Below, piece by piece: positions 770 through 31,871 of a stretch of DNA of 64,000 nucleotides. The notes beneath the pieces were generated by a model, which was given only the letters and a program-made list of their open reading frames with translations, was not told the DNA's origin and did not search any database. The DNA comes from Clostridia bacterium (GTDB taxonomy: Bacteria; Bacillota; Clostridia; UBA1212; UBA1255): contig JBKUJR010000002.1 of assembly GCA_046952735.1 (NCBI GenBank), positions 28,852 to 92,851 of the forward strand. Direction: 5' to 3'. The stretch's first letter is position 1. Each line of letters opens with the position of its first letter. The translations under genes and the position numbers were made by a program.

Positions 770-790
770 ATCTGTAAAACCTCCGTTCCT

Positions 791-2581
791 TTATTCCTTC
801 ACGATTGCGCCGAATTTGCACTTTTCCATACATGCTCCGCATTTTACGCACTTAGAACTGTCGATGACGTACGGAGAACGAATCTCGCCGTGGATACAAC
901 CCACGGGGCAGTTTTTCGCGCATACGCTGCAGCCTTTACATTTCGATGCGATGATTTTATATTGGAGAAGATCTTTGCAGACGCCTGCGGGACATTTTTT
1001 ATCCACGACATGCGCTACATACTCATCTTTAAAATAGCGGAGCGTGCTGAGTACCGGATTCGGCGCCGTCTGGCCAAGTCCGCAGAGAGCCGAAGCCTTG
1101 ATTGCGGCAGCAAGCTCATAAAGGTCGTCGATATCTTTGAGCTCGCCTTTGCCTTTGGTGATTTTATCCAGTATATCATACATCCGCTTTGTTCCGATCC
1201 GGCACGGCGGGCATTTTCCGCACGATTCCTCAACGGTAAACGCAAGGAAAAATTTCGCGATATCGACCATACAGGTATCTTCATCCATGACGATCAATCC
1301 GCCGGAACCCATCATGGATCCGATTTCGATCAGCGTATCATATTCGATCGGCGTATCGATCAGACTGGCCGGAATACAGCCGCCGGATGGACCGCCTGTC
1401 TGCGCCGCTTTGAACTTTTTGCCGTTTGGAATCCCTCCGCCGATGTCATAAATGATATCGCGCAGCGGCGTACCCATCGGGATTTCGACAAGACCCGTAT
1501 TTTTAATCTTGCCGCCCACTGCAAAAACCTTCGTACCTTTGCTTCTTTCAGAGCCTATGGTAGAGAACCAGTCCGCGCCTTTGAGGATAATCTGCGGAAT
1601 GTTGGCATATGTTTCCACATTGTTCAATATGGTAGGCTTTTGGAACAGCCCTTTCACTGCCGGGAACGGAGGCCGCGGCCGCGGTTCGCCCCTATGCCCT
1701 TCGATACTCGTCATCAGCGCCGTTTCTTCCCCGCAAACGAAAGCCCCGGCTCCCAGGCGGATTTCGATGTCAAAGGAGAAATCCGTCCCGAATATATTAT
1801 TTCCCAAGAGTCCGTAAGATTTGGCCTGCTCAATTGCGATCTGGAGACGCGATACCGCAATCGGATATTCCGCTCTTACATAGATGTAACCCTGATCCGA
1901 GCCGATCGCATATCCGGCGATCGCCATCGCTTCTAATACGACGTGCGGATCGCCTTCGAGTACGCTCCGGTCCATAAATGCGCCGGGATCGCCTTCATCC
2001 GCGTTACAGCACACATATTTCTTGTCAGAAACGCTTTTGCGCGCAAAATCCCATTTTCTTCCCGTTGGGAAACCGGCGCCGCCGCGCCCTCTGAGTCCCG
2101 ATTTCAATATGGTATCGATCACTTCTTCCGGCGTCATTTCCGTAACGACTTTTCCAAGCGCCGCATATCCGTCGTAGGCTATGTACTCATCTATATTTTC
2201 CGGGTTGATCCTGCCGCAGTTGCGAAGCGCTACGCGCATTTGCTTTTTAAAGAATTCGCTTTCCTGGACATCGGTTTCTTCCGCCGTTTTCTCCGTCTGT
2301 TCTAAGAGGCGTTTCACGATTCTGCCTTTCACCAGGTGTTCCGTTACGATTTCCTGCACGTCTGCTTTCGTAACGCGGCAATACATTGCGCCTTCGGGGT
2401 AAACCACGACGATCGGCCCTTCCGCACACAAACCGAAGCATCCCGTTTTGACGATTTTCACTTCATTTTCTATTCCCGCTTCCTGCAGGCGCTGTTCGAA
2501 TTCATCGAATAAAACTGCCGATCCGGACGATGTGCAGCCGGTTCCCGCACACACCAGCACGTGTGATCTGTAAAATTGCAT
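791..2581 (-). CDS. NADH-binding NuoF-like subunit of the bifurcating [FeFe] hydrogenase (HndC/HydB type), 596 aa
   Basis: N-terminal thioredoxin-like 2Fe-2S segment (HVLVCAGTGC), a NuoF 51-kDa core (GLRGRGGAGFPTGRKW, FMN/NAD binding) and C-terminal 2x[4Fe-4S] Cys clusters. A GGAGG RBS precedes the ATG at 2581. Confidence 0.9.
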   Translation of the reverse strand: MQFYRSHVLVCAGTGCTSSGSAVLFDEFEQRLQEAGIENEVKIVKTGCFGLCAEGPIVVVYPEGAMYCRVTKADVQEIVTEHLVKGRIVKRLLEQTEKTAEETDVQESEFFKKQMRVALRNCGRINPENIDEYIAYDGYAALGKVVTEMTPEEVIDTILKSGLRGRGGAGFPTGRKWDFARKSVSDKKYVCCNADEGDPGAFMDRSVLEGDPHVVLEAMAIAGYAIGSDQGYIYVRAEYPIAVSRLQIAIEQAKSYGLLGNNIFGTDFSFDIEIRLGAGAFVCGEETALMTSIEGHRGEPRPRPPFPAVKGLFQKPTILNNVETYANIPQIILKGADWFSTIGSERSKGTKVFAVGGKIKNTGLVEIPMGTPLRDIIYDIGGGIPNGKKFKAAQTGGPSGGCIPASLIDTPIEYDTLIEIGSMMGSGGLIVMDEDTCMVDIAKFFLAFTVEESCGKCPPCRIGTKRMYDILDKITKGKGELKDIDDLYELAAAIKASALCGLGQTAPNPVLSTLRYFKDEYVAHVVDKKCPAGVCKDLLQYKIIASKCKGCSVCAKNCPVGCIHGEIRSPYVIDSSKCVKCGACMEKCKFGAIVKE

Positions 2582-2602
2582 ATATTATGTCCTCCTTTGC
2601 CG

Positions 2603-2971
2603 TCAGTCTTCCACTGCGCCTATGGTATATTCGCTGACTACCTTACCATTCACAATATGATCCGTAACGACGCGCACAGCTTTCTCCGCCGTCATTTTTA
2701 CGTAAGTAACTTTTGTTCCGTCTTTGTCGATGACTTCCACGATAGGCTCTAAACGGCACATTCCGATACAGCCCGTCATTGCCACAGTGGCATTTGTGAT
2801 ATTTCTTTTGCGGATTTCGTCGACAAACGCGTTCATAACCGGTCTGGCGCCCGCTGCGATCCCGCAGGTAGCCATGCCCACGATGATCCGCATCCCCTCG
2901 GTCCCGTTTCTCATGGAAATTTCATTCTGCGTTTTTTCTTTAATTGCTTTTAATTCAGCTAACGATTTCAT
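2603..2971 (-). CDS. thioredoxin-like [2Fe-2S] ferredoxin (HndB-like small hydrogenase subunit), 122 aa
   Basis: Cys spacing in MATCGIAAGA...MTGCIGMC... is typical of NuoE/HndB-like 2Fe-2S proteins. It sits between the HATPase gene and nuoF-like, as in clostridial hnd/hyd operons. Confidence 0.7.
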   Translation of the reverse strand: MKSLAELKAIKEKTQNEISMRNGTEGMRIIVGMATCGIAAGARPVMNAFVDEIRKRNITNATVAMTGCIGMCRLEPIVEVIDKDGTKVTYVKMTAEKAVRVVTDHIVNGKVVSEYTIGAVED

Positions 2972-3518
2972 TCAGAACACCTCCGAAAATAATTTGAACA
3001 TTCTCATTAATATACTCTTTGATCCACTGCAGGATATCATATTCCGTAATCGGCGTATCGCCGAGCTCCGCTTTTACTTCTTCCGTATCGAATGTAAAAT
3101 TTCCTTTGGAAGATCGCAGTTGTAATAAAAACCGCGTATCCGGCGCGCCGGAAATCAAAAATTCCATCGTTTCCCCCAGATCTCCGAGCGGCAGCCTGTC
3201 GATATTGGCAATCTCAAAGCTTCCCGACAGCTTCGTACCCGCGTTCAGCTTCGAACGGATTTCGAAACGGCCTCCGGCCTGTTCGCAGGCCAGTTTGAAA
3301 AACGGGATTCCCATCCCCACTTTCCGCGTTTTACGGCTGGTGGTAAAAGGATCTTCTACCGCCTTTAAAAAATCTTCGCTCATTCCGCAACCGTTATCTT
3401 CGATCTGAACTGCGAGCAGCGCAGCTTCGGCAGAAACGGCAATCCGAATGGAATTTGCGCCCGCGGTAACGGAATTTTGCGTCAGGTCCAGAATATGCAG
3501 TGAAATATCGCGCAGCAT
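2955..3518 (-). CDS. histidine-kinase-like ATPase (HATPase_c) domain protein embedded in the hydrogenase operon, 187 aa
   Basis: Bergerat ATPase motifs: N-box ...SVTAGANSIRI..., G1 EDNGCGM, G2 GMGIPF. It has no DHp or sensor domains. Its position between nuoE-like and the ferredoxin is conserved in Thermoanaerobacter-type hyd operons. Confidence 0.65.
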   Translation of the reverse strand: MLRDISLHILDLTQNSVTAGANSIRIAVSAEAALLAVQIEDNGCGMSEDFLKAVEDPFTTSRKTRKVGMGIPFFKLACEQAGGRFEIRSKLNAGTKLSGSFEIANIDRLPLGDLGETMEFLISGAPDTRFLLQLRSSKGNFTFDTEEVKAELGDTPITEYDILQWIKEYINENVQIIFGGVLNEIVS

Positions 3519-3524
3519 GGGAAA

Positions 3525-4004
3525 TCAGTATTTCTCTAAAATCCCCGGGACATCCTCCGGAACGAGCCTTCCGTATACGTCGTTATTGATCGTAATAACC
3601 GGAGCAAGACCGCAGGCGCCGATGCAGCGGCATGCGTCGAGAGAAAATTTCCCGTCCTCCGTGCAGTCCCCCACCTGGATATCGAGCGCTTCTTTAAATT
3701 TATCTAAAACGAGATCGGCTCCTTTTACATAACACGCGGTGCCCAGACATACGGATATTTTATATTCTCCTTTCGGTTTCAAGGAGAACTGCGCATAAAA
3801 CGTTACGACGCCGTATACTTCGGCCAGCGGTATATCCATACCCTCCGCAATAATTTTCTGAACCTCCATGGGCAGATATCCGTAAATCAGCTGTGCTTCG
3901 TGAAGTACGTGGATCAGGGAACCTTGCTTGTCTTTGTTCGCCTCGATGATTTCCTGTAACTTGACGAGCTTTTCGTCGCAGTTGCAGTCACATGTGTTCG
4001 CCAT
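3525..4004 (-). CDS. NuoE-like [2Fe-2S] subunit of the bifurcating hydrogenase (HndA/HydC), 159 aa
   Basis: Thioredoxin-like 2Fe-2S NuoE family: CLGTACYVKG ... CRCIGACGLAPV. It is the first gene of the structural operon. Confidence 0.9.
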   Translation of the reverse strand: MANTCDCNCDEKLVKLQEIIEANKDKQGSLIHVLHEAQLIYGYLPMEVQKIIAEGMDIPLAEVYGVVTFYAQFSLKPKGEYKISVCLGTACYVKGADLVLDKFKEALDIQVGDCTEDGKFSLDACRCIGACGLAPVITINNDVYGRLVPEDVPGILEKY

Positions 4005-4061
4005 ATAATTTAACCTCCATTTTAGTAAATATTTGTTAAATACATACTTTTCAACCCTACG

Positions 4062-4090
4062 ATTATATCGCAGCTTCCAATAAATATCAA
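4062..4090 (-). promoter_or_regulatory. sigma-A-type promoter for the hydrogenase structural operon (TTGATA-17-TATAAT on the minus strand)
   Basis: The minus strand reads TTGATAtttattggaagctgcgaTATAAT, with the -10 element about 55 nt upstream of the nuoE-like ATG. It lies in the 106-nt gap after the PHP gene. Confidence 0.55.
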
Positions 4091-4110
4091 CAGCAAAATT
4101 CAGACGCTTT

Positions 4111-4851
4111 TTATAATATTCTTCCTTCTTTCAAAGCATCCAGGATCCCCCCGGCGGTTGTCTCCTCTACTGCGAGGAGCGCTCTGCCGTCTTCTTGTAT
4201 TTTATCAAGATAATGCGCATCTGACGATGGCAATAGTTTGTAATTTTCCAATAACGGGTAATTTTGCAATAATATGTCCCTGTCGCAGCCGCTTGAAATT
4301 TCCACGAACGGATTTGCATATCCGTACGGCAGCGCGCCGAGATTCGTAAGCACGCTGTAGGAATCCCGATCTACATGCGCCGGGTAAGCGATCCCCCCCA
4401 GCGAAGCTGCAATTTCAAAGGAATCGTCTATGGTGATTCCCGTAGGGGCAAGGAGCATGTGGGCAAGCTCTCCGCAAATTTCGTCTTCCGCGTTATAAAG
4501 GAATTGTCTTCCGAAAATTTCCGCGCGGTTCGGCGGTATGGCCCCATTGTAAGAAGCCGTTACCCGTTCCTGAAAACATGCCAGACGCTCTAAGTCCGGG
4601 AAAAGGCAAACCACATGGATCTCTTCCGCAGTTTCAAGTTCCATCCCCGGAATGACCGTGATACCGAAGCGCTTTCCCAATATCACGGCAGCTTCCGAAT
4701 TTTGAGACGCATTGTGATCCGTTACGGCAATCGCGGAAAGTCCGTTGAGTTTCGCCATACCGACAATGTTCCCCGGGGTCATCGATTCATCTGCGCACGG
4801 AGAAAGCGCGGAATGGATATGCAGATCAACCGATACGTTTTGATAGCTCAT
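4111..4851 (-). CDS. PHP-domain metal-dependent phosphoesterase, 246 aa
   Basis: N-terminal VDLHIHSALSPC (HxH metal-binding) and DHN motifs of the PHP family. This family is commonly linked to [FeFe]-hydrogenase clusters in Clostridia. Confidence 0.8.
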   Translation of the reverse strand: MSYQNVSVDLHIHSALSPCADESMTPGNIVGMAKLNGLSAIAVTDHNASQNSEAAVILGKRFGITVIPGMELETAEEIHVVCLFPDLERLACFQERVTASYNGAIPPNRAEIFGRQFLYNAEDEICGELAHMLLAPTGITIDDSFEIAASLGGIAYPAHVDRDSYSVLTNLGALPYGYANPFVEISSGCDRDILLQNYPLLENYKLLPSSDAHYLDKIQEDGRALLAVEETTAGGILDALKEGRIL

Positions 4852-5191
4852 ATGCCGTAATAATCAGTTCGGCTGCCTGCAGCGGCGTGGAAAGCAGCGT
4901 TACTTCCCGTTCCCGCGCTTTTTCAGCCAACACGTCGGGAATTTCGATTCCTTCCGGAATGACGATGCAGGCTACCTCTACCAGAGAGGCGACGGCCAGG
5001 ATATTGATATTGTTCATTACCGTCACCCATAAATCGCCCTCTTTTGCATGCGAAATCGCCCAGCTCAGCAAGTCGCACGCATAAAATCCGGAGATTTCCC
5101 GATCCGGATCGCCCGTTACCAATTTTAATTTGCATGGCTCAAGAAGATCACTGATTTTCATCTTCCGCCTCCGTTCCGTCTGTAAAACCAT
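4826..5191 (-). CDS. DRTGG domain protein, about 110-121 aa
   Basis: Small CBS-associated DRTGG-type fold (…VMNNINILAVASLVEVACIVI…). The likely true start is the internal Met near 5161 (MKISDLL). It overlaps its neighbours on both sides. Confidence 0.6.
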   Translation of the reverse strand: MVLQTERRRKMKISDLLEPCKLKLVTGDPDREISGFYACDLLSWAISHAKEGDLWVTVMNNINILAVASLVEVACIVIPEGIEIPDVLAEKAREREVTLLSTPLQAAELIITAYELSKRIG

Positions 5192-6485
5192 TGTCGAACA
5201 TCATCATTTCATTTGCAAGCCGCTTGATTTTTCTGCGCAAAATAAAAATACAGTCGGTCATTCTAGCTTTTCCGCGAACGACGTCTTCCGCCAGTGCCCT
5301 GCAGCTCGGAGAACCGCAGGCCCCGCAGTCCAGCGCCGGCAGTTTTTCATAAATTTCATTCATTTTTTTGAGTTTTTCCATCGCTTTCGTCATATCCGGA
5401 TCAAGAATACTGACGTTGCAATGCACAAGCGGTTTTTCCCATGCGGTATCTTTCAATTCTTCCGGCTCGAGTTCTCTGTAAAGCGCGGGGGTATCCTCCA
5501 GTTGCTGACGGTTCCGGTTCTTGGCGACATACAGATTTTCCACCGTCAGCGGCCCGCCGGTACAGCCACCTGTGCAGGCAGAGGTCTCGATAAAATCGAT
5601 GTCTTTGATTTTATCGTCTTCGAGATCTTCCAGGATTTTGACTACATTCTGGATTCCGTCGACATAAAGGACACGCTTCGTATCGATCGCAAGCGCCTCT
5701 CCCCCGGTAGAGGCCCATCGGACGCCGTATTTCCCCGCCTGGAGCAGAATTTCATCTACATTTTCCGCCCGCATTTTCGCCAGCTGCTTGAGCAGCTTGA
5801 AATAAACCATCTTGATGGGGATGACGCCGTTTACATTCGAATGCGCTACATCGAGCGGTGCTTTTGTACTCGTCATTTTTGCGGCGCATGGGGAAAGGAA
5901 AAAAACGCCGACTTCCTCCGGAGGGACATGGTTCATTGCGCAAAATTCCCGCCGTGCGTTCTGTGCCGCAATCTCCATCGGCGATTTGATCGGGATCAAA
6001 TTCGGGATCAAATTCGGGTATCGGATCTGGATCAGGCGTACCACCGCCGGGCACGCCGAAGAAATCAAAGGGAATTCTCCTAAGTGCGCATATAAATATT
6101 CATTGCTCTGATGCGTGACGATTTCCGCTCCGCGCGCTACTTCATAGATATAATCGAATCCCAGCGCCTTCAGCGCGGCGATGATATGTTTTCTCGTATA
6201 TAGGTTCATGTCGAACTGCATATATAAAGACGGCGCAGGCAGCGCAATCGTATATTTATATTCCGCAAGCTGATCCCAGGAATCCGTATGCGCGACTTTC
6301 GCTTTATACGGACATGTCCGGATGCATTCGCCGCAGTCGATACATTTGTCATTCAGGATTCTCGCTTTCCCGTTTTGCACGCGGATCGCTTCTGTCGGAC
6401 ATTTTTTGATGCAATTGGTGCAGCCTTTGCAGAGCTTCTCATCCAGTAATACCGAATGGCTGTATGCTTCGGACATCCCGAACAC
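5148..6485 (-). CDS. sensory-type [FeFe]-hydrogenase-like protein (HydS-like, no PAS domain), 445 aa
   Basis: N-terminal 2x4Fe-4S ferredoxin motifs (CKGCTNCIKKCP, CIDCGECIRTCP). H-cluster-like motifs L1 SSACPAVV (TSCCP with the second Cys replaced by Ala), L2 SPCAAK, L3 ETSACTGGCTGGP. A C-terminal extra Cys cluster CGACGSPSC. Confidence 0.75.
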   Translation of the reverse strand: MFGMSEAYSHSVLLDEKLCKGCTNCIKKCPTEAIRVQNGKARILNDKCIDCGECIRTCPYKAKVAHTDSWDQLAEYKYTIALPAPSLYMQFDMNLYTRKHIIAALKALGFDYIYEVARGAEIVTHQSNEYLYAHLGEFPLISSACPAVVRLIQIRYPNLIPNLIPIKSPMEIAAQNARREFCAMNHVPPEEVGVFFLSPCAAKMTSTKAPLDVAHSNVNGVIPIKMVYFKLLKQLAKMRAENVDEILLQAGKYGVRWASTGGEALAIDTKRVLYVDGIQNVVKILEDLEDDKIKDIDFIETSACTGGCTGGPLTVENLYVAKNRNRQQLEDTPALYRELEPEELKDTAWEKPLVHCNVSILDPDMTKAMEKLKKMNEIYEKLPALDCGACGSPSCRALAEDVVRGKARMTDCIFILRRKIKRLANEMMMFDNGFTDGTEAEDENQ

Positions 6486-6509
6486 CCCCTTATCATGAAA
6501 AATATGTAT

Positions 6510-6986
6510 TTACGCGATATTTACGATCAGCGTTACAACGGTTCCTTCTCCCACTTTGCTTTCGATTTGCATATCGTCCGTATAACGCTGCATATTTGGA
6601 AGGCCCATTCCGGCGCCGAAGCCAAGTTCCCGGACGGTTTCCGGCGCGGTGGACCATCCAGCGGTCATTGCCTGTGCGATATCCGGGATTCCGGGACCGT
6701 GATCCGATATTTTAACCGTCACTTTCTCAGGGGTAATTTCAATATCCGCTTCTCCGCCGCCAGCGTGTATGACAGCGTTGATTTCCGCTTCATACATGGC
6801 GATCGCTACGCGTTTGACCACCGCCGGATTGACGCCGATCTTGTTGAGCGTCCGTTTGACGCCGCTGGAGGCTTCTCCCGCTGCGGAAAAATCGACCGCA
6901 TCGATATCATAATGTAACGTTAACGCCTGATCGCTCAATCCCAGACACCCTTTCCTATGATTCCGGCGCTGTAAAGCTTTCCGCAT
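6510..6986 (-). CDS. RsbW/SpoIIAB-like anti-sigma-factor-type Ser/Thr protein kinase (HATPase_c), about 140-158 aa
   Basis: GHKL ATPase motifs (…EAEINAVIHAGGG…, DHGPGIPD, GFGAGMGLPNM) with no DHp domain. The start is probably an internal Met. Confidence 0.65.
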   Translation of the reverse strand: MRKALQRRNHRKGCLGLSDQALTLHYDIDAVDFSAAGEASSGVKRTLNKIGVNPAVVKRVAIAMYEAEINAVIHAGGGEADIEITPEKVTVKISDHGPGIPDIAQAMTAGWSTAPETVRELGFGAGMGLPNMQRYTDDMQIESKVGEGTVVTLIVNIA

Positions 6987-7291
6987 GTAATAAACAAGGG
7001 ATGCTTGGTCGTAAGGATCGTGATCCCCATTTCTTTTGCAAGCGATATGATATTTTCACCGGGTATTTTACCCCGTACGAAACAGATGACCTTGATATCC
7101 ATCATTTCACACGTTCTGACTACCTGCGGATTGACCAGGCCCGTACAAAGGATAACGCTTTCCTTCACGAACGCCATCACGTCGCTCATCAGATCCGCTC
7201 CGCAGCCCGAATAAATTTCAAGATCCATATTTTCTTCGCCGGTAAGAATCTCCGCTTCCAAAATTTCGACTATTTCTCTTACTTTCAGCAT
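6935..7291 (-). CDS. DRTGG domain protein (second copy), 118 aa
   Basis: DRTGG-type sequence, paralogous to 4826..5191. Its ATG shares one nucleotide with the valS stop codon (minus strand TGATG). Confidence 0.6.
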   Translation of the reverse strand: MLKVREIVEILEAEILTGEENMDLEIYSGCGADLMSDVMAFVKESVILCTGLVNPQVVRTCEMMDIKVICFVRGKIPGENIISLAKEMGITILTTKHPLFITCGKLYSAGIIGKGVWD

Positions 7292-9951
7292 CAGACATCA
7301 AACCTCTTTCTTAAATTCTCAAGTCGTTCGGCGACATTGTCATACATCTGTTTATATTTTACCAGCTTTGCTTTTTCTTCGTCAACCACTTTCTGAGGTG
7401 CTTTTGAGGTGAAATTTACATTTTCAAGCTTGGCGTTCACACGTCCCAGCTCTTTTTCGAGATTTTCTTTTTCTTTTGACAGGCGTTCCATTTCTTTTTC
7501 AAAATCGATCAGTTCATCCAAAGGTATATATATTTCCGCGCCGGCTACGACGGCTGCCGCGGCGTCTTCGGGAATGCCTGTTTTATTTTCCTGGAGCGAA
7601 ATACCGGAGGCGTATGCAAGGCGCTGGAAAAGCTGCTCCGCATTCCGGATCACGTCCGCTTCCCTGCCGCCTGCTACGAATATAATGCGGGCTTTGCGGG
7701 ACACCGGCACGTTCATCTCCTGACGGATATTCCGTATTGCGCGGATTGCGCTGATGACCAGAGCCATGTCTTTTTCCTCCGTCGGATATTCCTGCGCCGG
7801 ATCGTATTCCGGCCATTTAGAGATCATTATGCTTTGCGCGTCTTTATAAAGGCTCTGATACAGTTCTTCCGTAATAAACGGCATAAACGGGTGGAGGAGC
7901 TTCAGGCATTTTACGAGGACTTCATTGAGCACATACTGCGCTTCCAATCTGGAAGGCGCCGCGTCGTCGAACAAGCGCGGCTTTACGAATTCGATGTACC
8001 AGTCGCAAAAATAATCCCACATAAAATCATATACCTTGGCAAGGGCTACGCCAAGTTCAAATTTTTCCAGATTTTCCGTTACTTCTCTGACCAGCGTATT
8101 GCAGGCGGATAAAATCCACTTGTCCGCCGCAGTGAATTTTTCCGGATCGAGCTGCCTGAAATCCGGTTCATCGTCGAAATTCAGAAGTACGAAGCGCGTA
8201 GCGTTCCAGATCTTGTTGGCAAAATTCCGTGCGGCTTCCACTTTCTCCGGAAGATATCTTTGGTCGTTCCCCGGCGCATTCCCGGAGGTCAGCGCAAAGC
8301 GCAGCGCGTCCGTACCGTATTCGCTGATAACTTCCAGCGGATCGATTCCATTTCCAAGGGATTTCGACATTTTCCTCCCCTGTGAATCCCGTACGAGCCC
8401 ATGGATCAGGACATACTTGAAAGGCGGTTCCCCCATTTGTTCGCAGGCGGAGAAAATCATACGCGCGACCCAGAAAAAGATAATGTCATAGCCCGTAACC
8501 AACACGTCCGTTGGATAAAAATATTGCAAATCCTCCGTCTGCCGGGGCCAGCCTAATGTGGAGAAAGGCCATAATGCAGAGCTGAACCAGGTATCCAGCG
8601 TGTCGGGATCCTGCCGAAGCGCAGAGGCGCCGCAATGCGGGCAGCGCTCCGGTTTTGTTTTTGCAACGATCGTTTCGCCGCACGCATCGCAATAATAAGC
8701 GGGGATGCGATGCCCCCACCAGAGCTGGCGGGAAATGCACCAGTCCTGGATATTTTCCATCCAGTTATAATAAATTTTTGAAAAGCGATCCGGCACGAAT
8801 TTTACCTTGCCCGTTTTTACGGCATCAATGGCCGGTTCCGCCAGAGGCTTCATCTTTACATACCATTGCTTGGAGACCATCGGTTCTACGACCGTACCGC
8901 AGCGCTGGCACGTTCCGACGTTATGCTTATGCGGTTCTGTCTTTACCAGCAGCCCCAGCGCATCAAGATCCGCTATGATCTGTTTCCGCGCTGCGTATCG
9001 CTCCATTCCGCGGTATTTTCCACCGTTTTCATTGATAAAGCCGCGATCGTCCATGATTTTGATCACTTCGAGTTCATGGCGTTTTCCAACCTCAAAGTCG
9101 TTCGGATCGTGTGCCGGCGTAATTTTAACAGCGCCCGTACCGAAGCCGAGCTCGACGTATTCATCTGCAATAATCGGAATTTCTTTATCCATCAAGGGCA
9201 AAATCAACTTTTTCCCGATTAAATGGCGATATTTTTCGTCTTCCGGATTTACTGCGACTGCCGTGTCGCCAAGCATCGTTTCCGGACGCGTCGTTGCGAT
9301 CATCAGGGATCCGCTTCCATCCGCAAACGGATAATCGATGTACCAGAAGCTGCCGTCAAGCTCTTTATACTCCACCTCGATATCGGAAATAGAGGTATTA
9401 CAGTGCGGGCACCAATTCGTAATCCTTTCTCCGCGGTATATGAGCCCTTTTTCATAGAGCTTTATAAATACTGTAAGGACCGCTTCAGACAACCCCTCAT
9501 CCATCGTAAAACGCAGTCTGCTCCAATCGCAGGAGCTTCCCAGACATTTCAGCTGGTTTACGATCCGGTTGCCGTACAATTCTTTCCATTCCCAGGCTCT
9601 TTTCAGAAAGGCTTCTCTGCCGACGTCTTCTTTCGTCAGTCCCTCCTTTGCCATGGCGTCCACGATCTTTGCTTCTGTCGCAATACTTGCGTGGTCGGTG
9701 CCCGGCACCCAGAGCGCGGAAAAGCCCTGCATCCTTTTGAAGCGGATCAGGATATCCTGCAGCGTATTATCGAGCGCATGTCCCATATGCAGCTGTCCCG
9801 TGATATTCGGAGGCGGGATCACGATGGTAAAAGGTTTTTTATCAGGATCTGCTTTTCCCTTAAAATATCCTTTTTCTTCCCAATTCTGATAGATTCTTTG
9901 TTCAACGCAGGCAGGATCGTAAACCTTTGCCATGGTATCAGCCTTTTTCAT
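7291..9951 (-). CDS. valS: valine--tRNA ligase, 886 aa
   Basis: Class I aaRS HIGH motif ([15 protein letters not shown]) and KMSKS ([10 protein letters not shown]), editing domain, and C-terminal coiled coil. A GGGAGG RBS lies upstream. Confidence 0.97.
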
Positions 9952-10136
9952 ATAATCCGTTTCCTCCCAATATATTGATTCATCGTATTATGATACAACT
10001 TTTCGTCTGTTTTTGTCAATTGCGGAATGCCTATTTACATTTTTCTTTTTCTTTTCAAAGTCTTTGCTACTTTTCTTTGTTTTCTCTACCCTATCTGTGA
10101 AACCGGACAAATTGTGTCCGCATAAAAATTTTTTTC

Positions 10137-10145
10137 TGATATAAT
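10137..10145 (+). promoter_or_regulatory. extended -10 promoter element (TGATATAAT) for the downstream EVE-like gene
   Basis: TGnTATAAT about 28-58 nt upstream of the candidate start codons (10173 or 10203). No good -35 element was found. Confidence 0.35.
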
Positions 10146-10172
10146 GGTTTTGGTACATAAAACAGGAAGAAT

Positions 10173-10610
10173 GTGCTGTGTTCTCCAAATTGTAAAGGGG
10201 CGTTTATGATGATGAAAAAAGAAATTGACCGGCGCGGCCAAAAAAACTGGATTGTTCCCGCAAATCCAAAATATTATGATTTAGAAAAAGCTTTTTCTGA
10301 AAGTGAAAGCATTCTTTGGAAACAGAGCAGCCGCATATCTGTCGGAGATACCGTCTATTTATATGTTGCCGCACCTGTTTCCGCAATTTGCTATAAATGC
10401 CAGGCAATTGAAGTCGATATCCCCTATGACTATGACGATGGAAAAATACGCATGCGCCATGTTATGCGGCTGAAGCTGATAGAACGATATGCGCCGACGC
10501 TGTTCCCTTTTGACAAGCTGAAAATTTATGGGATTTTTGCTGTTCGCGGCCCGCGCAGCATGCCAGACAGCCTGCTGTATGTAATAGAGAACAGAAGCCG
10601 GGAGACATAA
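10173..10610 (+). CDS. small PUA-like (EVE/ASCH-type) domain protein, 135-145 aa
   Basis: NWIVPANPKYYDLEKAF ... ISVGDTVYLYVAAPVSAI resembles EVE/ASCH PUA-like beta-barrel proteins. The probable start is MMMKKEID at 10203, behind an AAAGGGG RBS. Confidence 0.45.
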   Translation: MLCSPNCKGAFMMMKKEIDRRGQKNWIVPANPKYYDLEKAFSESESILWKQSSRISVGDTVYLYVAAPVSAICYKCQAIEVDIPYDYDDGKIRMRHVMRLKLIERYAPTLFPFDKLKIYGIFAVRGPRSMPDSLLYVIENRSRET

Positions 10611-10752
10611 TCCGCAGAATCGGCAGCACGGCTGCGCCTCAAGGAAAGCGCGCTTTGCTGCAGTCCCATTCCGATCATATACATCACGGGAATCTCAGGA
10701 TCAAAAGCTCAGTTCGGATATACTCCTGATATTTCAGTTGATCGGCTTTCCT

Positions 10753-11043
10753 CTATGCAAGGAGCATGCTGATGATTGCGGAAATGAGCCCGCCGGCAAG
10801 CGCCGCAATGATCGCCGTAGTAATCTGCTGCATTCGCTGCTTCGGCTGGTTTTCAATCGCATCGATCTTCTGCTCATGTCTTGCAAGATGTTCGTTTGTG
10901 TGTTTGAGTTCTGTTGCGAGCGTAACCAACGCTTCGTTCATGGAACGGATTTCGGCCTGTACCTCACGCAAATCGCGAATATCCCGTTCTAAAATTTTCA
11001 GTCTCTGTTCATAACGCTCCAAAATTACATTGATTTCATTCAT
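10753..11043 (-). CDS. XhlA-family protein (phage-type haemolysin/holin-associated coiled coil with C-terminal TM), 96 aa
   Basis: An N-terminal heptad-rich coiled coil followed by the single C-terminal TM ITTAIIAALAGGLISAIISMLLA. This architecture is typical of XhlA. Confidence 0.65.
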   Translation of the reverse strand: MNEINVILERYEQRLKILERDIRDLREVQAEIRSMNEALVTLATELKHTNEHLARHEQKIDAIENQPKQRMQQITTAIIAALAGGLISAIISMLLA

Positions 11044-11384
11044 ATATTTCTCCTTTCTTCGGCGGCAGCTTTATTGTAGCTGTTAATGTGGTAAGCATCC
11101 GACCGCTTTAGAAAAGTTTTTCCTATATTTTTTCACAAAACAATTTAGCGGTAGTTGATTTCAAGAATCAGCGCGCACAATAACTATCCCCTGTGGCAAT
11201 CGCTGTTTTTCACCGCCGTTCTTAAAATCAATCTTTCCGTTCGTCTAAGATTTCCGTTTTCTCTTCTGGCAGCAAGTGCGTAAAATCGGGGGGGTACTGA
11301 ATTGATATAGGATTACTGTTCGATCGTTCACCTGAAGAAATCCGCCGGCGCGAAGCAAAGAAATTTCACCGATCACACCGGTTT

Positions 11385-11966
11385 TCATGGCATTCCCCAG
11401 AACAGTCTGTTGTATTTTTGCAGCCGTTCGAAAAAGCGTCCCGATTTACTGCCGCCCTTACCGATTCGGTGAATCATCTGGTTCCAATTTTCAAGAAACC
11501 CGATCCGCATCAAAAAAGAAGCAACGTCCTGTAAAAGCTTATTCGCCTCATTTTCTCTTCCCGGCAGATATTCGATCTCGAGTTCAAAATCAACCATGCC
11601 AAGATAGTTGTTTTTATCCAGATAGAAATCGACGCCGTCGCTGTGCAGTTCCGCTCTTTCTGTGACCAGAAAGCCTTTATATGCTGCACGTACGTCTCCA
11701 AACGGAAAAGAATCCGTGACAGAAGATACGGCTGCCGAGAGTTCTTCACTGCTGTCTGAATCCGGTAAATGACTTTTCTTCGTAGCTTGAAACTTTCCGT
11801 CCTTTTCCCGGATCCGGCAGGTAACGCCGCTGCGGTGCAAAGCATAGTCCTCCGTATCGTAGTAATGATTCGTCTGATACGTCCTGCACGCATTTTCAAA
11901 AAAATGTTTGAGCAGCGCCGCATACTCCTTCTGTGTCAGCAAAATTTTCTTTTCTCTTTCAATCAT
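11385..11966 (-). CDS. CYTH-domain (triphosphate tunnel metalloenzyme, CyaB/ThTPase-like) protein, 193 aa
   Basis: N-terminal EREKKILL (the CYTH EXEXK-type signature), later ExE (FELEIEY) and acidic tunnel residues. Its start overlaps the ligase stop by 4 nt. Confidence 0.7.
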   Translation of the reverse strand: MIEREKKILLTQKEYAALLKHFFENACRTYQTNHYYDTEDYALHRSGVTCRIREKDGKFQATKKSHLPDSDSSEELSAAVSSVTDSFPFGDVRAAYKGFLVTERAELHSDGVDFYLDKNNYLGMVDFELEIEYLPGRENEANKLLQDVASFLMRIGFLENWNQMIHRIGKGGSKSGRFFERLQKYNRLFWGMP

Positions 11967-13342
11967 TTTCTCGTCCTCCTTCTGATAAGTTTTCCCGAAC
12001 CGTTTTTCTCCAGTTGATCTGCAAGTTCAATTTTAGATGGAATCTGATAAGGCGGAAGCAGCGCCCTACATAAATCTTTGGCTTCCGCTGCCGATGCAAA
12101 ATCCCCAACAAGCTTCAAGCCGATCTGCGTACCCAGCCTCGGATGTTCAAATCCGAAAGCGATAGCCTCGCGTACTCTTGCATCCGACAGCAATGCAGCT
12201 TCGATCTCCTGCGGATAAATATTCATACCGGCCCGGATGATGAGATCATCGTTGCGCCCTTTGATTCGGAGCAGTCCGTTATCGCTGATTTCCGCTAGAT
12301 CACCGGTGCATAGCCACCCATTCCGAAGTACCTTTGCCGTTTGCTTCGGATTTTTATAATATCCGAGCATAACATTCTCACCTTTTATCCACAAAAGTCC
12401 GGTTTTATTTCCTTCAACAGGCTTTCCGGACTCATCGCAAATCCGGATCGATATCCCGTTCAGCGGTTTCCCGACGAAAGATCCATAATCGGCAAAGAGA
12501 GAAGGATGCAGATAGCTGACTCTCGGGCAGGCTTCCGTTAATCCGTAAACATGATAAATGTCGGCGTCCCGGAAAGCGGAAGCGATTCTTTTACCGACTG
12601 CTGCATTCATACACTCGCCGCTGACGGCGATATGCTTCAACGTGCTTGTCTGTCCCTTTCTCATAAATCGGGACATCGTATCAAGCAGCGTCGGCGTTGC
12701 GCAAAAGACGGTGATCTTTTTATCCCGGATCACTTTAAAAATTTCTGAAGGATTAAACGCCTCCGAGTAAAATTCGATTCCGCTCCCCTTTTCAATCGCG
12801 GTCAGAAACTCGCCGGTCAGCACGGCGCAGTGATAAAGCGGCCTCGCAATCAGTATCCGATCTTTGTCACCGATTCCGAAGTATGCGGAAATAGCCCGTA
12901 CATTTGCAACGATGCTCCATTCGCTGAGCATCGCTCCCTTTGGGACTCCGGTCGTACCGGAGGTACACATAATCACAGCCGGATGCGCTTTCGGTGCTTC
13001 ATAGGAATACTTGCCGTAATGTAGCACCATAAGTTCGCCATACGTATCCGTGATCATACAGCTCGGACTGATGAACTCGAGAATTTTCCGGCAATGCGCC
13101 TCCCCGTACCGCATGGACAGCGGCACTGCAGTGATATCAGCCGCAAAGCAGCTGAGCAGCGCCATAGCCGCCGCCATCTCCGAACGGCACAGAATTGCAC
13201 AACACGTTTCACCCTCTAACCGTTTTGAGAACGATTCGGCAAAAACAACAAGTTCTTCAAAATTCATTTCTGCAGTATGCTCGCTCATTCTCTGCGACGG
13301 ATGCAGAAGCAATGAATTTTTGATGTGATTCCACAGTTCCAC
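11963..13342 (-). CDS. acyl-AMP ligase / adenylate-forming enzyme (ANL superfamily), 459 aa
   Basis: Adenylation core motifs: TSGTTGVPKG, YGLTE, GDLAEISDNGLLRIKGRNDDLIIRAGMNIYPQEIE, and a C-terminal GSGKLIRR Lys. Confidence 0.85.
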   Translation of the reverse strand: MELWNHIKNSLLLHPSQRMSEHTAEMNFEELVVFAESFSKRLEGETCCAILCRSEMAAAMALLSCFAADITAVPLSMRYGEAHCRKILEFISPSCMITDTYGELMVLHYGKYSYEAPKAHPAVIMCTSGTTGVPKGAMLSEWSIVANVRAISAYFGIGDKDRILIARPLYHCAVLTGEFLTAIEKGSGIEFYSEAFNPSEIFKVIRDKKITVFCATPTLLDTMSRFMRKGQTSTLKHIAVSGECMNAAVGKRIASAFRDADIYHVYGLTEACPRVSYLHPSLFADYGSFVGKPLNGISIRICDESGKPVEGNKTGLLWIKGENVMLGYYKNPKQTAKVLRNGWLCTGDLAEISDNGLLRIKGRNDDLIIRAGMNIYPQEIEAALLSDARVREAIAFGFEHPRLGTQIGLKLVGDFASAAEAKDLCRALLPPYQIPSKIELADQLEKNGSGKLIRRRTRK

Positions 13343-13418
13343 TTTTCATTTCCCCCTTTCTCTTTTCTGTAAATTCCTGAGACAGCGTTTTTTCTTTGGA
13401 ATGACCGCCAATGTAAAA

Positions 13419-13670
13419 TCATACCGTTTCATACAAATCACCTGTATACCTTTCCGCCAGCGCAATCACATCTCCGGCAGATATCAGATCATATGGATTC
13501 ATATCCGATTCATCCAGTTCAATTGCAAAAGCATCCTCCAGTTCCAGCAAAAGCGTTACCATGCACAAGCTGTCAAGCCCCAAATCGCCCTGCAAAGCGC
13601 TGCCTTCCGCCACCTCGTCCATGTCGCTGAGTTCTTTCAGAATCTCAATCACGTTTTCTTTAACATCCAT
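13419..13670 (-). CDS. acyl carrier protein (phosphopantetheine-binding), 83 aa
   Basis: The DSL phosphopantetheine attachment motif (LGLDSLCMVTLL) in an acidic four-helix ACP-like sequence. Its start overlaps the upstream kinase gene by 11 nt. Confidence 0.8.
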   Translation of the reverse strand: MDVKENVIEILKELSDMDEVAEGSALQGDLGLDSLCMVTLLLELEDAFAIELDESDMNPYDLISAGDVIALAERYTGDLYETV

Positions 13671-15384: not shown

Positions 15385-15402
15385 ATTCCTTTCCTATTCC
15401 TT

Positions 15403-15759: not shown

Positions 15760-15792
15760 TTGTTCCTCCCCTCCTTTCGTTTCTTATGGTAT

Positions 15793-16284: not shown

Positions 16285-16286
16285 CT

Positions 16287-31851: not shown

Positions 31852-31871
31852 AATACCTCCTGAAGATGGTT

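What the first reader, a model, noticed from the sequence alone, without database searches (positions are those of the whole stretch)
4111..7293. A sensory [FeFe]-hydrogenase module translationally fused to the end of valS
Upstream of the structural hydrogenase operon sits the conserved 'regulatory' set: DRTGG, RsbW-like Ser/Thr kinase, HydS-like protein, DRTGG, PHP. The HydS-like protein keeps the H-cluster motifs L2 and L3 but carries SSACP in L1, so the proton-relay Cys is replaced by Ala, as reported for sensory hydrogenases. It has extra N- and C-terminal Fe-S cysteine clusters and lacks the PAS domain usually present in HydS. No PP2C phosphatase or anti-sigma antagonist partner for the kinase is encoded nearby. 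The first gene of the set (DRTGG, start 7291) shares one nucleotide with the valS stop codon (TGATG). This implies co-transcription and translational coupling of an essential aaRS with an H2-sensing module. That is an unusual operon composition.
Basis: partly seen in the sequence, partly recalled or inferred. Interest (0 to 1): 0.55.

Follow-up and report, generated by a model that had tools for sequence, protein, structure and literature searches.

The report
Hydrogen-sensor gene set joined onto valS
A known kind of putative hydrogen-sensing gene set lies in front of a hydrogenase operon and, in one lineage of gut Clostridia only, starts inside the stop codon of the valyl-tRNA synthetase gene; the junction is real and conserved, but it is an ordinary case of operon compaction.

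Summary
On the minus strand, valS (7291..9951) ends in TGA, and its A is the first base of the ATG of a DRTGG gene. Four more overlapping or tightly packed genes follow: a SpoIIAB-like kinase, a 442-aa [FeFe]-hydrogenase homologue, a second DRTGG gene and a PHP phosphoesterase. Next come a near-consensus promoter and hydC-HATPase-2Fe2S-hydB-hydA.

The hydrogenase homologue is a group D (M2e) "putative sensory" enzyme. It scores 51% identity and 404 bits against the characterised TamHydS, versus about 85 bits against group A. It has the Cys-to-Ala change in L1, Met-to-Ser in L2, the C-terminal Cx2Cx4Cx16C motif, the group-D proton-path residues and no PAS domain.

The five-gene set is near-universal around group D genes (kinase in 69 of 73 loci, DRTGG-1 in 67 of 73). 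It has been noted in the literature (C. thermocellum Cthe_0335, Halanaerobium Halsa_1862-1871).

The valS junction is lineage-specific. It is identical in seven assemblies (HydS identity 75% or more) and absent from all 80 more distant loci, where the set has its own terminator and promoter. Synonymous sites in the last ~30 valS codons are the most conserved in the gene. That stretch holds the ribosome-binding site and a promoter-like element. Co-transcription is likely but not obligatory. Interest is modest.

The parts
9990..10019 (-). Promoter-like site of valS (TTGACA-18-TATCAT), about 40 nt upstream of the valS ATG. No T-box leader.
   Evidence: Promoter scan, 11 of 12 matches. Sequence read. 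No Rfam match at the gathering threshold or at E<=1.
7291..9951 (-). valS, valine--tRNA ligase, 886 aa. The TGA stop is at 7293..7291.
   Evidence: NF004349 at 1254.7 bits and TIGR00422 at 1161 bits, both above their cut-offs. Pfam tRNA-synt_1, Anticodon_1 and Val_tRNA-synt_C.
7356..7385 (-). Candidate internal promoter inside the valS 3' coding region (TTGACG-18-TAAAAT, with TG before the -10 hexamer).
   Evidence: Promoter scan, 10 of 12 matches plus TG. The -10 hexamer is invariant and the -35 nearly so in relatives. It is absent from the valS 3' ends of lineages without the junction. Function untested; such matches are common (18 found versus 10.6 expected).
7289..7312 (-). Junction: ribosome-binding stretch AAGAAAGAGG (7312..7303) within the last valS codons, then TGATG, where the valS stop and the DRTGG-1 start share base 7291.
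   Evidence: Sequence. Conserved in seven assemblies. The Arg codons AGA and AGG are invariant here although Arg codons vary elsewhere in valS.
6935..7291 (-). DRTGG-1, 118 aa, a stand-alone DRTGG-domain protein.
   Evidence: PF07085 at E=3.5e-6. AF2 model with pLDDT 90.3. Foldseek top hits are AF1212 (2ioj, TM 0.82), the DRTGG domain of CBS-pyrophosphatase, and the HPrK/P N-terminal domain. The N-terminus MLKVREI is conserved in relatives without valS.
6510..6938 (-). SpoIIAB/RsbW-like GHKL ATPase / Ser-Thr kinase, 142 aa. Its TTG start overlaps the DRTGG-1 stop (TTGA).
   Evidence: PF13581 HATPase_c_2 at E=1e-14. TIGR01925 spIIAB at 62 bits, below its cut-off. Best solved relatives are anti-sigma F factor chains at E~1e-7. 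27% identical to the window's own SpoIIAB.
5148..6476 (-). Group D (M2e) putative sensory [FeFe]-hydrogenase, 442 aa. Features: Fer4 motifs at 6396..6431 and 6309..6344; L1 SSACP at 6048..6062; L2 SPCAAK at 5877..5894; L3 at 5550..5588; C-terminal Cx2Cx4Cx16C at 5250..5327.
   Evidence: Pfam. 51% identity and 404 bits to TamHydS, versus 84-85 bits to group A enzymes. Residue mapping. Literature criteria from PMC8163306 and PMC10407848.
4826..5161 (-). DRTGG-2, 111 aa, a divergent DRTGG paralogue. Its start overlaps the hydrogenase gene's 3' end by 14 nt, behind a GGAGG site.
   Evidence: PF07085 at 24.1 bits (just under the cut-off) and Hpr_kinase_N at 23 bits. Start site read. Present after HydS in 64 of 69 loci.
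4111..4851 (-). PHP-family metal-dependent phosphoesterase, 246 aa.
   Evidence: PF02811. Invariant D9/H11/H13, D45/H46, E71/E73, H79, H159 and D211/H213 across 32 homologues. AF2 pLDDT 96.7. Closest folds are EndoQ, PsfC, RNase AM, pAp phosphatase and the Pol III PHP domain.
4062..4090 (-). Near-consensus promoter of the structural operon (TTGATA-17-TATAAT), in the 106-nt PHP-hydC spacer.
   Evidence: Promoter scan, 11 of 12 matches. Both hexamers and the spacing are conserved in eight relatives.
2..4004 (-). Structural hydrogenase operon: hydC/NuoE-like (3525..4004), HATPase_c protein (2955..3518), 2Fe-2S protein (2603..2971), hydB/NuoF-like (791..2581) and hydA (2..769, cut by the window edge).
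   Evidence: Pfam and NCBIfam. tblastn of the L005 HydA gives 87.5% identity over residues 1-256.

Best explanation
**What it is.** The region is the regulatory half of a ten-gene cassette that is widespread in Clostridia. Five tightly packed genes come first: DRTGG-1, a SpoIIAB-like kinase, a group D (M2e) [FeFe]-hydrogenase, DRTGG-2 and a PHP phosphoesterase. A separately promoted operon for a HydABC-type (NuoE/NuoF-linked) hydrogenase follows.

**How the sensor is thought to work.** The group D protein keeps a complete H-cluster site but lacks the fast group-A proton path. By analogy with the characterised TamHydS, it binds and slowly turns over H2 and reports H2 or redox state rather than carrying flux (inferred from homology). 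The signal is presumably passed through its C-terminal [4Fe-4S] domain to the small GHKL kinase and the DRTGG proteins. The output and the role of the PHP enzyme are unknown (inferred).

**The valS junction.** In this lineage only, the DNA between valS and the module has been lost. valS has no terminator, and the DRTGG-1 start codon overlaps the valS stop. A ribosome-binding stretch is built into the last valS codons (shown). The module is therefore most likely transcribed from the T-box-less sigma-70-type valS promoter, and DRTGG-1 is translated by termination-reinitiation. A conserved promoter-like element inside the valS 3' end may add to this (inferred).

**Consequence.** The likely effect is a steady, housekeeping-level supply of sensor proteins, while the enzyme operon keeps its own strong promoter. 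No specific link to valine charging is needed.
For: **Identity.**
- Domain content.
- 51% identity and 404 bits to TamHydS, versus 84-85 bits to group A enzymes.
- In 442-aa numbering: A141 equals A137 of TamHydS and C299 of CpI; S195 replaces M353; E260, D273 and E297 equal Tam E252, D265 and E289.
- Cx2Cx4Cx16C motif at C384..C409. All four H-cluster cysteines are present.
- These criteria are taken from PMC8163306 and PMC10407848.

**Cassette conservation.**
- In 80 metagenome loci: kinase 69/73, DRTGG-1 67/73, DRTGG-2 64/69, PHP 55/69.
- Same order in C. thermosuccinogenes.
- Literature: Cthe_0335 versus Cthe_0340-0342 (PMC3561251) and Halsa_1862-1871 (PMC4237134).

**Junction.**
- Sequence.
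- Same one-base overlap in L001, L002, L003, L005, L006 and L011.
- No terminator-like site on the minus strand between 7200 and 7500.
- The last ~12 informative valS codons are the top-ranked of 626 windows for synonymous conservation: 50% have all six codons identical versus 11% overall.

**Lineage restriction.**
- L007, L009 and L012 have other upstream genes. L007 and L009 show a terminator followed by a TATACT -10 hexamer before the DRTGG start.
- None of the 80 distant loci has valS abutting the module.
- In L092, valS has its own terminator and folC follows. In L038 and L043, valS has a T-box.

**Separate promoter for hydC.**
Against: - No transcript data exist, so co-transcription is inferred only from the lack of space and of a terminator.
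- The ribosome-binding core GAGG is 11 nt from the ATG, longer than the 9 nt seen in relatives with a free-standing module. Coupling efficiency is therefore uncertain.
- The internal promoter-like element could make valS read-through irrelevant.
- A sensory role for group D enzymes is still only 'putative' in the literature; TamHydS does catalyse H2 turnover at a low rate.
- No DNA-binding output protein is encoded in the module.
- The DRTGG fold is not STAS-like, and the PHP fold resembles nucleotide or nucleic-acid phosphodiesterases rather than protein phosphatases. The assumed kinase/phosphatase logic therefore has no direct support.
Confidence: 0.65

Rival explanations
1. The overlap is only genome compaction. 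The module is expressed mainly from its own promoter, embedded in the last ~100 nt of valS (7385..7356), and valS read-through contributes little. The nucleotide conservation at the valS 3' end reflects this promoter and the ribosome-binding site, not coupling to valS.
For: - A promoter-like site with extended -10 lies about 65 nt upstream of the DRTGG ATG.
- Its -10 codons GTA-AAA-TAT are essentially invariant in six sequences, while the same amino acids use varied codons elsewhere in valS.
- The element is missing from the valS 3' ends of lineages without the junction.
- Free-standing modules in relatives have their own promoter at a similar distance.
Against: - Promoter-like matches are frequent in this AT-rich coding DNA: 18 found versus 10.6 +/- 3.3 expected in 8 kb.
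- In L005 the -35 hexamer is weakened to TTGATG and the TG is lost.
- With no terminator, valS transcripts must still run into the module.
- The strict conservation of TGATG itself is not explained by a promoter.
Confidence: 0.25
2. The linkage to valS is functional. Expression or activity of the H2-sensing module is deliberately tied to valyl-tRNA synthetase or to translation status, as the first reader's 'unusual operon composition' suggests.
For: - The junction has been kept across a clade with 85-90% ValS identity.
- Class-Ia synthetase genes turn up near group D modules in 5 of 43 HydS clusters: valS in three arrangements, ileS, and leuS+argS. My rough chance expectation is below one.
Against: - The arrangements differ: upstream abutting, upstream behind folC, or downstream behind a T-box. 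In those other cases the synthetase has its own terminator or leader.
- Most lineages have no synthetase nearby.
- The enrichment estimate ignores shared ancestry of gene order, and the window clade itself is the ascertainment case.
- No protein in the module has a recognisable tRNA- or amino-acid-binding domain.
Confidence: 0.07
3. The 442-aa protein is not a sensor. It is a slow catalytic or electron-transfer hydrogenase that works with HydABC, for example as an alternative H2-oxidising entry point. The kinase, DRTGG and PHP genes would then serve maturation or another process.
For: - All H-cluster ligands and two ferredoxin-type clusters are intact.
- TamHydS does catalyse both H2 oxidation and H+ reduction at low rates (PMC8163306).
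- No transcription factor is encoded in the module.
- The PHP fold points to nucleotide or nucleic-acid chemistry.
Against: - The group-A proton path is lost and the substitute residues are conserved.
- The protein is constantly associated with a SpoIIAB-like kinase (69/73).
- Reported TamHydS activity is very low and its H2 affinity is increased.
- It lies phylogenetically next to the PAS-bearing group C.
Confidence: 0.12

Closest known systems
TamHydS of Thermoanaerobacter mathranii (group D / M2e putative sensory [FeFe]-hydrogenase; PMC8163306, PMC10407848, PMC13104023)
   Same: - Same architecture: 2x[4Fe-4S] N-domain, H-domain and C-terminal Cx2Cx4Cx16C, with no PAS domain.
- Ala at the CpI-C299 position and Ser at M353.
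- The Glu/Asp alternative proton path is conserved.
- Encoded upstream of a bifurcating-type HydABC next to a histidine-kinase-like ATPase.
- 51% identity over 425 residues.
   Different: - M497 is replaced by Ser here and by Leu in TamHydS.
- K126 of TamHydS is Ala here.
- The TamHydS paper mentions a flanking AraC-type regulator. None is present in this window's module.
- No valS linkage is reported for TamHydS.
Group C (M2f) HydS: Thermotoga maritima TmHydS, Ruminococcus albus HydS, Thermoanaerobacterium HfsB
   Same: - Sensory-type H-domain with the proton-relay Cys replaced by Ala.
- Extra C-terminal [4Fe-4S] cluster.
- Located beside kinase genes and hydrogenase operons.
- Genetic evidence of a regulatory role exists for hfsB.
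   Different: - Group C proteins carry a C-terminal PAS domain and have Gly at M353.
- They are reported beside Ser/Thr protein kinase genes and are listed as two-gene entries; that they pair with PP2C-type phosphatases is from my own knowledge, not from a paper read here.
- Here there is no PAS domain, M353 is Ser, and the partners are two DRTGG proteins and a PHP enzyme.
SpoIIAB/SpoIIAA/SpoIIE and RsbW/RsbV/RsbU partner-switching modules
   Same: The module's kinase is a small GHKL protein of the HATPase_c_2 family. Its closest solved relatives are SpoIIAB chains, and it is 27% identical to the SpoIIAB encoded in the same window.
   Different: - No STAS antagonist, PP2C phosphatase or sigma factor is encoded with it.
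- The conserved companions have a DRTGG fold, not STAS, and a PHP fold, not PP2C.
Regulatory [NiFe]-hydrogenase HoxBC with HoxJ/HoxA of Ralstonia eutropha
   Same: The logic is the same: a low-activity hydrogenase paralogue senses H2 and controls an enzyme operon through a kinase (as summarised in PMC5707799).
   Different: It is an unrelated metal centre and protein family. The output there is a known two-component system with a DNA-binding response regulator, and nothing comparable is encoded here.
Usual valS contexts in Clostridia and other Firmicutes (T-box leader; valS followed by folC)
   Same: It is the same enzyme. Relatives L092 (valS-terminator-ORF-folC-module) and L038/L043 (T-box-valS) show the usual features next to the same hydrogenase module.
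   Different: Here valS has a short leader with no T-box. No folC is present in the window. There is no terminator, and the C-terminal tail (..LRKRFDV) carries the downstream ribosome-binding site.

Membership tests
Group D (M2e) [FeFe]-hydrogenase | H-domain with the four H-cluster cysteines (CpI C300, C355, C499, C503) | tested here: met
   C142, C197, C301 and C305 are invariant in alignment A2. Fe_hyd_lg_C scores E=3e-37.
Group D (M2e) [FeFe]-hydrogenase | Proton-relay Cys (CpI C299) replaced, mostly by Ala (A137 in TamHydS) | tested here: met
   SSACP; A141 aligns with TamHydS A137. Criterion from PMC10407848.
Group D (M2e) [FeFe]-hydrogenase | M353 replaced by a hydroxyl residue (Ser/Thr) | tested here: met
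   S195-P-C197 (L2 = SPCAAK). Criterion from PMC8163306.
Group D (M2e) [FeFe]-hydrogenase | Group-D-specific alternative proton path (Tam E252, E289, D265 and S/T249) | tested here: met
   E260, E297 and D273 are invariant in A2, and S/T lies just before GGEA. The TamHydS sequence was read from a PDF and is one residue short, so numbering after residue ~140 is offset by one.
Group D (M2e) [FeFe]-hydrogenase | N-terminal 2x[4Fe-4S] domain and C-terminal Cx2Cx4Cx16C motif, with no PAS domain | tested here: met
   Fer4 motifs at residues 16-27 and 45-56. C384-x2-C387-x4-C392-x16-C409 with PF04060 at E=2e-13. No PAS hit.
Group D (M2e) [FeFe]-hydrogenase | Closer to a characterised group D enzyme than to group A; phylogenetic placement against group C | tested here: inconclusive
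   404 bits to TamHydS versus 84-85 bits to two group A enzymes. No group C sequence was available, so no tree was built and the exclusion of group C rests on motifs alone.
Group D (M2e) [FeFe]-hydrogenase | H2 binding with low turnover (sensor-like biochemistry) | not testable with these tools
   Requires purified protein.
Group C (M2f) HydS | C-terminal PAS domain after the extra [4Fe-4S] cluster | tested here: not met
   The protein ends 33 residues after the last Cys. No PAS family appears in Pfam or NCBIfam.
Group A catalytic [FeFe]-hydrogenase | TSCCP motif with the proton-relay Cys, and the E279/E282/R286 proton path | tested here: not met
   SSACP. Only the E282 equivalent (aligned with TamHydS E122) is kept, and the R286 equivalent (TamHydS K126) is Ala. 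All group A NCBIfam models score far below their cut-offs.
SpoIIAB/RsbW partner-switching module | Small GHKL kinase with N, G1 and G2 ATP-binding boxes | tested here: met
   HATPase_c_2 at E=1e-14. The sequence shows EAEINAVIHA, DHGPGI and GFGAGMGL (box definitions are from general knowledge of GHKL ATPases). PDB hits are SpoIIAB.
SpoIIAB/RsbW partner-switching module | Adjacent STAS-domain antagonist that is the kinase substrate | tested here: not met
   No STAS gene in 1..18.3 kb. The DRTGG-1 model matches DRTGG and HPrK-N folds, not STAS. The only STAS gene in the window belongs to the spoIIA operon.
SpoIIAB/RsbW partner-switching module | PP2C phosphatase and a cognate sigma factor | tested here: not met
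   None in the module or in the 80 related loci screened with the window's genes. The conserved fifth gene is PHP.
DRTGG domain family (PF07085) | DRTGG fold | tested here: met
   DRTGG-1 scores 27.2 bits against a cut-off of 25.2. The AF2 model has TM 0.82 to AF1212 (2ioj). DRTGG-2 scores 24.1 bits, just under the cut-off.
PHP phosphoesterase superfamily | His/Asp/Glu metal-ligand motifs and a PHP barrel | tested here: met
   Invariant HxH, DH, E, H, H and DxH motifs in 32 homologues. The fold matches EndoQ, RNase AM, pAp phosphatase and Pol III PHP.
Translationally coupled operon (valS with the module) | Stop/start overlap, no intervening terminator, and conservation of the junction | tested here: met
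Translationally coupled operon (valS with the module) | A single transcript spanning both genes, with downstream translation dependent on upstream translation | not testable with these tools
   Needs RNA and reporter experiments.

The most novel reading that the evidence does not exclude
The five-gene set (DRTGG, SpoIIAB-like kinase, group D HydS, DRTGG, EndoQ-like PHP phosphodiesterase) may be an undescribed kind of H2-responsive signalling device. It would work without STAS, PP2C, PAS or a DNA-binding output, perhaps through a nucleotide or RNA-directed step carried out by the PHP enzyme with the DRTGG proteins as adaptors. Its repeated placement beside class-I aminoacyl-tRNA synthetase genes (here welded onto valS) would then reflect a real link between H2/redox state and the translation apparatus.
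Probability: 0.08. Interest if true: 0.65.

Novelty: new member of a known kind. Interest (0 to 1): 0.27.

Why it matters
**Value for the field.** Group D [FeFe]-hydrogenases are under active biochemical study as putative H2 sensors, but how they pass on a signal is unknown. This locus adds no new principle. The comparison made here does show three things:
- The sensor almost always travels with the same four partners.
- DRTGG-1 is the best-conserved of the regulatory genes in nearer relatives. For example, in C. thermosuccinogenes it is 71% identical against 65% for the kinase and 55% for HydS. Over the 80 distant loci, however, the kinase has the slightly higher median identity (55% against 52%).
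- The partners are neither STAS-like nor PP2C-like.

That narrows where to look for the signalling mechanism.

**The valS junction.** This is a tidy example of how a regulatory module can lose its own upstream region and come to ride on a housekeeping gene. Its signals are then written into the coding sequence of that gene. It matters mainly for annotation and for anyone planning transcript or knockout work in these gut Clostridia.

Tried and rejected
1. **T-box or other leader upstream of valS.** Nothing found in Rfam at the gathering threshold or at E<=1. valS has a short leader behind a sigma-70-like promoter.
2. **Rex-type operator in the PHP-hydC spacer.** Only an imperfect AT-rich half-palindrome (TTAACAAATATTTACTAA) is present. 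It is poorly conserved beyond close relatives, so I did not pursue it.
3. **DRTGG proteins as disguised STAS antagonists.** Rejected; the model matches DRTGG and HPr-kinase N-terminal folds.
4. **PHP as a CpsB/YwqE-type protein phosphatase partner for the kinase.** Not supported. The nearest folds are nucleic-acid or nucleotide phosphodiesterases, and sequence hits to solved structures are marginal.
5. **Protein fusion by frameshift at the junction.** I saw no slippery heptamer in the sequence, and the DRTGG-1 N-terminus is the same in free-standing homologues.
6. **Domain fusions that would tie DRTGG-1 to a partner.** The best 120 of 7329 homologues are all about 117 aa single-domain proteins.
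8. **Full A/B/C/D tree.** Not built, because no group C sequence could be obtained.

Full report
**What is in the sequence.**

Every gene in 1..10 kb lies on the minus strand.

valS (7291..9951, 886 aa) is an unambiguous valine--tRNA ligase: NF004349 at 1254.7 bits against a cut-off of 704. Its last codons read AGA AAG AGG TTT GAT GTC TGA. The A of that TGA is the first base of ATG CTG AAA GTA..., which is the start of a 118-aa DRTGG-domain protein.

Four further genes follow with overlaps or very short gaps:
- A 142-aa HATPase_c_2 protein. Its most plausible start, TTG 6938, overlaps the DRTGG stop as TTGA.
- A 442-aa protein with two ferredoxin-type [4Fe-4S] motifs, the [FeFe]-hydrogenase large-subunit domain and a C-terminal PF04060 Fe-S motif. 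It starts at ATG 6476 behind GGGGG.
- A second, divergent DRTGG protein starting at ATG 5161 behind GGAGG, 14 nt inside the hydrogenase gene.
- A 246-aa PHP-family protein.

A 106-nt spacer carrying TTGATA-17-TATAAT precedes the structural genes. These are hydC (NuoE-like), a 187-aa HATPase_c protein, a small 2Fe-2S protein, hydB (NuoF-like) and the first 256 codons of hydA, which runs off the window.

**What the hydrogenase homologue is.**

The literature defines a group D (subclass M2e) of [FeFe]-hydrogenases by the following features (PMC8163306 and PMC10407848):
- an N-terminal 2x[4Fe-4S] domain;
- an H-domain in which the proton-relay Cys299 (CpI numbering) is replaced, mostly by Ala;
- Met353 replaced by Ser or Thr;
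- a C-terminal Cx2Cx4Cx16C motif;
- no PAS domain;
- a group-specific alternative proton path (TamHydS E252, E289, D265 and S/T249);
- a position upstream of a trimeric bifurcating hydrogenase.

I recovered the TamHydS sequence from the supplement of PMC6984386 and aligned it. Identity is 51% over 425 residues at 404 bits. Two group A enzymes give 84-85 bits.

In 442-aa numbering, the following are invariant or nearly so across 13 homologues spanning 50-80% identity:
- A141-C142-P143;
- S195-P-C197;
- E260, D273 and E297;
- C301 and C305;
- C384-x2-C387-x4-C392-x16-C409.

No group C or D enzyme has a solved structure. I could not obtain a group C sequence, so there is no tree. Group C is excluded on the missing PAS domain, the Ser at M353 and the group-D-only proton-path residues.

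**How general the gene set is.**

Exact-protein look-ups and two collection scans gave 92 related loci. I screened them with the window's ten proteins. In the 80 metagenome loci (HydS identity 44-65%) the counts were:

| Gene and position | Loci with it / loci with enough flank |
|---|---|
| Kinase just upstream of HydS | 69 / 73 |
| DRTGG-1 before the kinase | 67 / 73 |
| DRTGG-2 after HydS | 64 / 69 |
| PHP after DRTGG-2 | 55 / 69 |
| hydC downstream (same strand) | 23 / 45 |
| hydB on the opposite strand upstream | 7 / 46 |

The cassette is present in Clostridium thermosuccinogenes.

The literature already records its essentials. Carere et al. list group D M2e 'sensory' hydrogenases five genes upstream of trimeric bifurcating enzymes and near protein kinases, for example Cthe_0335 versus Cthe_0340-0342 (PMC3561251). 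The Halanaerobium hydrogeniformans operon Halsa_1862-1871 has the same order, including the PHP and anti-sigma-kinase genes (PMC4237134). The module is therefore a new member of a known kind.

What I did not find in the searchable literature is any mention of the two DRTGG proteins as constant partners.

**The junction with valS.**

The one-base overlap is present, with the same surrounding bases, in six other assemblies:
- three species-level genomes from human and chicken gut (L001-L003);
- two JGI metagenome contigs (L005, L006);
- one ENA contig (L011).

Their HydS identity to the window is 75-92% and their ValS identity is 85-90%. The stretch TAAGAAAGAGGTTTGATG(T/C)CTGATGCT is invariant apart from that one position.

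In a codon-aligned comparison of the six distinct valS genes, only 11% of amino-acid-invariant degenerate columns use one codon in all six. In the last dozen such columns the figure is 50%, and these are the top-ranked of 626 sliding windows. The two Arg codons that form the ribosome-binding stretch (AGA, AGG) never vary, although Arg codons vary freely elsewhere in valS.

No terminator-like hairpin lies between the genes. Co-transcription and termination-reinitiation are therefore the most economical reading.

Two cautions apply:
- The GAGG core is 11 nt from the ATG, against 9 nt in free-standing modules.
- A promoter-like element, TTGACG-18-TGgTAAAAT, sits at 7385..7356, about 65 nt upstream of the start. 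Its -10 codons are essentially invariant and the surrounding codons show raised synonymous conservation. It is absent from valS genes of lineages that lack the junction. However, such matches are common in this DNA (18 observed against 10.6 expected), so its activity is unproven.

**The junction is lineage-specific.**

Other arrangements were found in relatives:

| Locus | HydS identity | What lies next to the module |
|---|---|---|
| L007 | 67% | PHO4-PhoU upstream, then a terminator and a TATACT -10 hexamer |
| L009 | 63% | Unrelated genes upstream, then a terminator and TTGCTG-17-TATACT |
| L012 | 55% | Upstream gene is on the opposite strand |

None of the 80 distant loci has valS abutting the module.

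Elsewhere valS keeps its usual features. In L092 it has a hairpin terminator and is followed by a small ORF and folC before the module. In L038 and L043 it lies downstream of the module behind a T-box leader at 114.5 bits.

The window's valS has neither a T-box nor folC nearby. Its promoter is TTGACA-18-TATCAT, about 40 nt upstream.

The simplest history is a single loss of the intervening DNA in the ancestor of this clade. After that, the signals for the module were maintained inside the valS coding sequence.

**How it probably works.**

*Shown:*
- The sensor-type hydrogenase has an intact H-cluster site and the group D substitutions.
- A SpoIIAB-like GHKL kinase with intact ATP-binding boxes is present. 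It is 27% identical to the true SpoIIAB encoded 31 kb away in a canonical spoIIAA-spoIIAB-sigF operon.
- There are two DRTGG proteins. The first gives a confident model (pLDDT 90). It matches AF1212 (TM 0.82), the DRTGG domain of CBS-pyrophosphatase and the N-terminal domain of HPr kinase, not STAS.
- The PHP enzyme has every metal-ligand motif invariant. Its model (pLDDT 96.7) is closest to EndoQ, PsfC, RNase AM, a pAp phosphatase and the Pol III PHP domain.
- The enzyme operon has a separate near-consensus promoter, conserved in eight relatives.

*Inferred:*
- H2 or redox state is read at the H-cluster, as proposed for TamHydS.
- The signal passes via the C-terminal cluster domain to the kinase and DRTGG proteins.
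- Riding on the valS transcript gives the sensor set a steady, housekeeping-level expression in this lineage.

*Unknown:*
- The output. No DNA-binding protein is encoded in the module.
- The substrate of the kinase.
- The role of the PHP enzyme. Its fold argues against the idea that it is simply the protein phosphatase opposing the kinase.

**Verdict.**

The 'sensory module' is a textbook-position group D cassette. The 'fusion' to valS is a genuine, conserved and selectively maintained stop/start overlap, but it is confined to one clade. Nothing in the evidence ties H2 sensing to valine charging.

A loose end deserves a proper synteny analysis. Class-Ia synthetase genes appear within a few kilobases of the module in 5 of 43 HydS clusters:
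- valS abutting upstream;
- valS upstream behind folC;
- valS downstream;
- a type-2 ileS;
- leuS plus argS.

My rough expectation by chance is below one. Shared ancestry of gene order and the ascertainment of the window clade itself could account for much of this.

Noticed in passing
Related loci L092 (valS 12..2387), L038/L043/L049 (valS about 9250..11950), L025-L033 (ileS, e.g. L026 8262..11342), L009/L010 (leuS 93..2516, argS 2534..4225): Class-Ia aminoacyl-tRNA synthetase genes recur within a few kb of group D sensor modules in 5 of 43 HydS 70%-identity clusters, in different arrangements. This is more than a rough chance estimate (below one), but it could be inherited gene order.
   Followed up: partly
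window 35431..38660 (-): A canonical sporulation cluster: spoIIAA (STAS, 38295..38660), spoIIAB (37751..38275), a sigF-like sigma factor (37017..37778), then spoVAC and spoVAD. It holds the only STAS protein in the window and has its own kinase.
   Followed up: yes
window about 10000..17500: A stretch of lower G+C (0.44 against about 0.49). It carries an XhlA-like gene, CYTH, an AMP-binding enzyme, a thymidylate/deoxynucleoside-kinase-like gene, NTP_transf_5 and HTH genes. It is bounded by tRNA genes at 17433..17505 (-) and 18381..18451 (+). Relatives L005 and L011 have tsaB-rimI much closer to valS, so this looks like an inserted island.
   Followed up: partly
window 4111..4851 (-): The PHP protein's confident model is closest to EndoQ, RNase AM, pAp phosphatase and Pol III PHP domains, that is, to nucleotide or nucleic-acid phosphodiesterases, not protein phosphatases. 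Its role beside an H2 sensor is unexplained. An invariant S17-P18-C19 follows the HxH motif.
   Followed up: partly
window 6935..7291 (-): DRTGG-1 is the best-conserved regulatory gene in nearer relatives. In C. thermosuccinogenes it is 71% identical, against 65% for the kinase and 55% for HydS. Across the 80 distant loci, though, the kinase median (55%) slightly exceeds that of DRTGG-1 (52%). An invariant loop GADLMSD (residues 31-37) is the least confident part of the model. This marks it as a candidate interaction or modification site.
   Followed up: partly
window 2955..3518 (-): A second, different GHKL ATPase (HATPase_c, 187 aa) sits inside the structural operon between hydC and the 2Fe-2S gene. 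It is conserved in that position in most related loci. Its function is unknown.
   Followed up: no
window 4005..4061 (-): The hydC 5' leader contains an AT-rich stretch, GTATGTATTTAACAAATATTTACT. It is conserved among close relatives and partly among more distant ones. It could be an operator or an RNA element and is not a canonical Rex box.
   Followed up: partly
window 9952..10060 (-), compared with L038 8985..9194: valS here has no T-box leader, whereas valS next to the same module in L038 and L043 has a clear one (114.5 bits). T-box control of valS has therefore been lost or replaced in this lineage.
   Followed up: yes
window 29365..31950 and 41581..44091 (-): There are two ClpB/ClpC-type double-AAA+ genes within 12 kb. 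The first, with Clp_N repeats, lies next to a radA-like gene. The second lies upstream of uvrA/uvrB-like genes.
   Followed up: no
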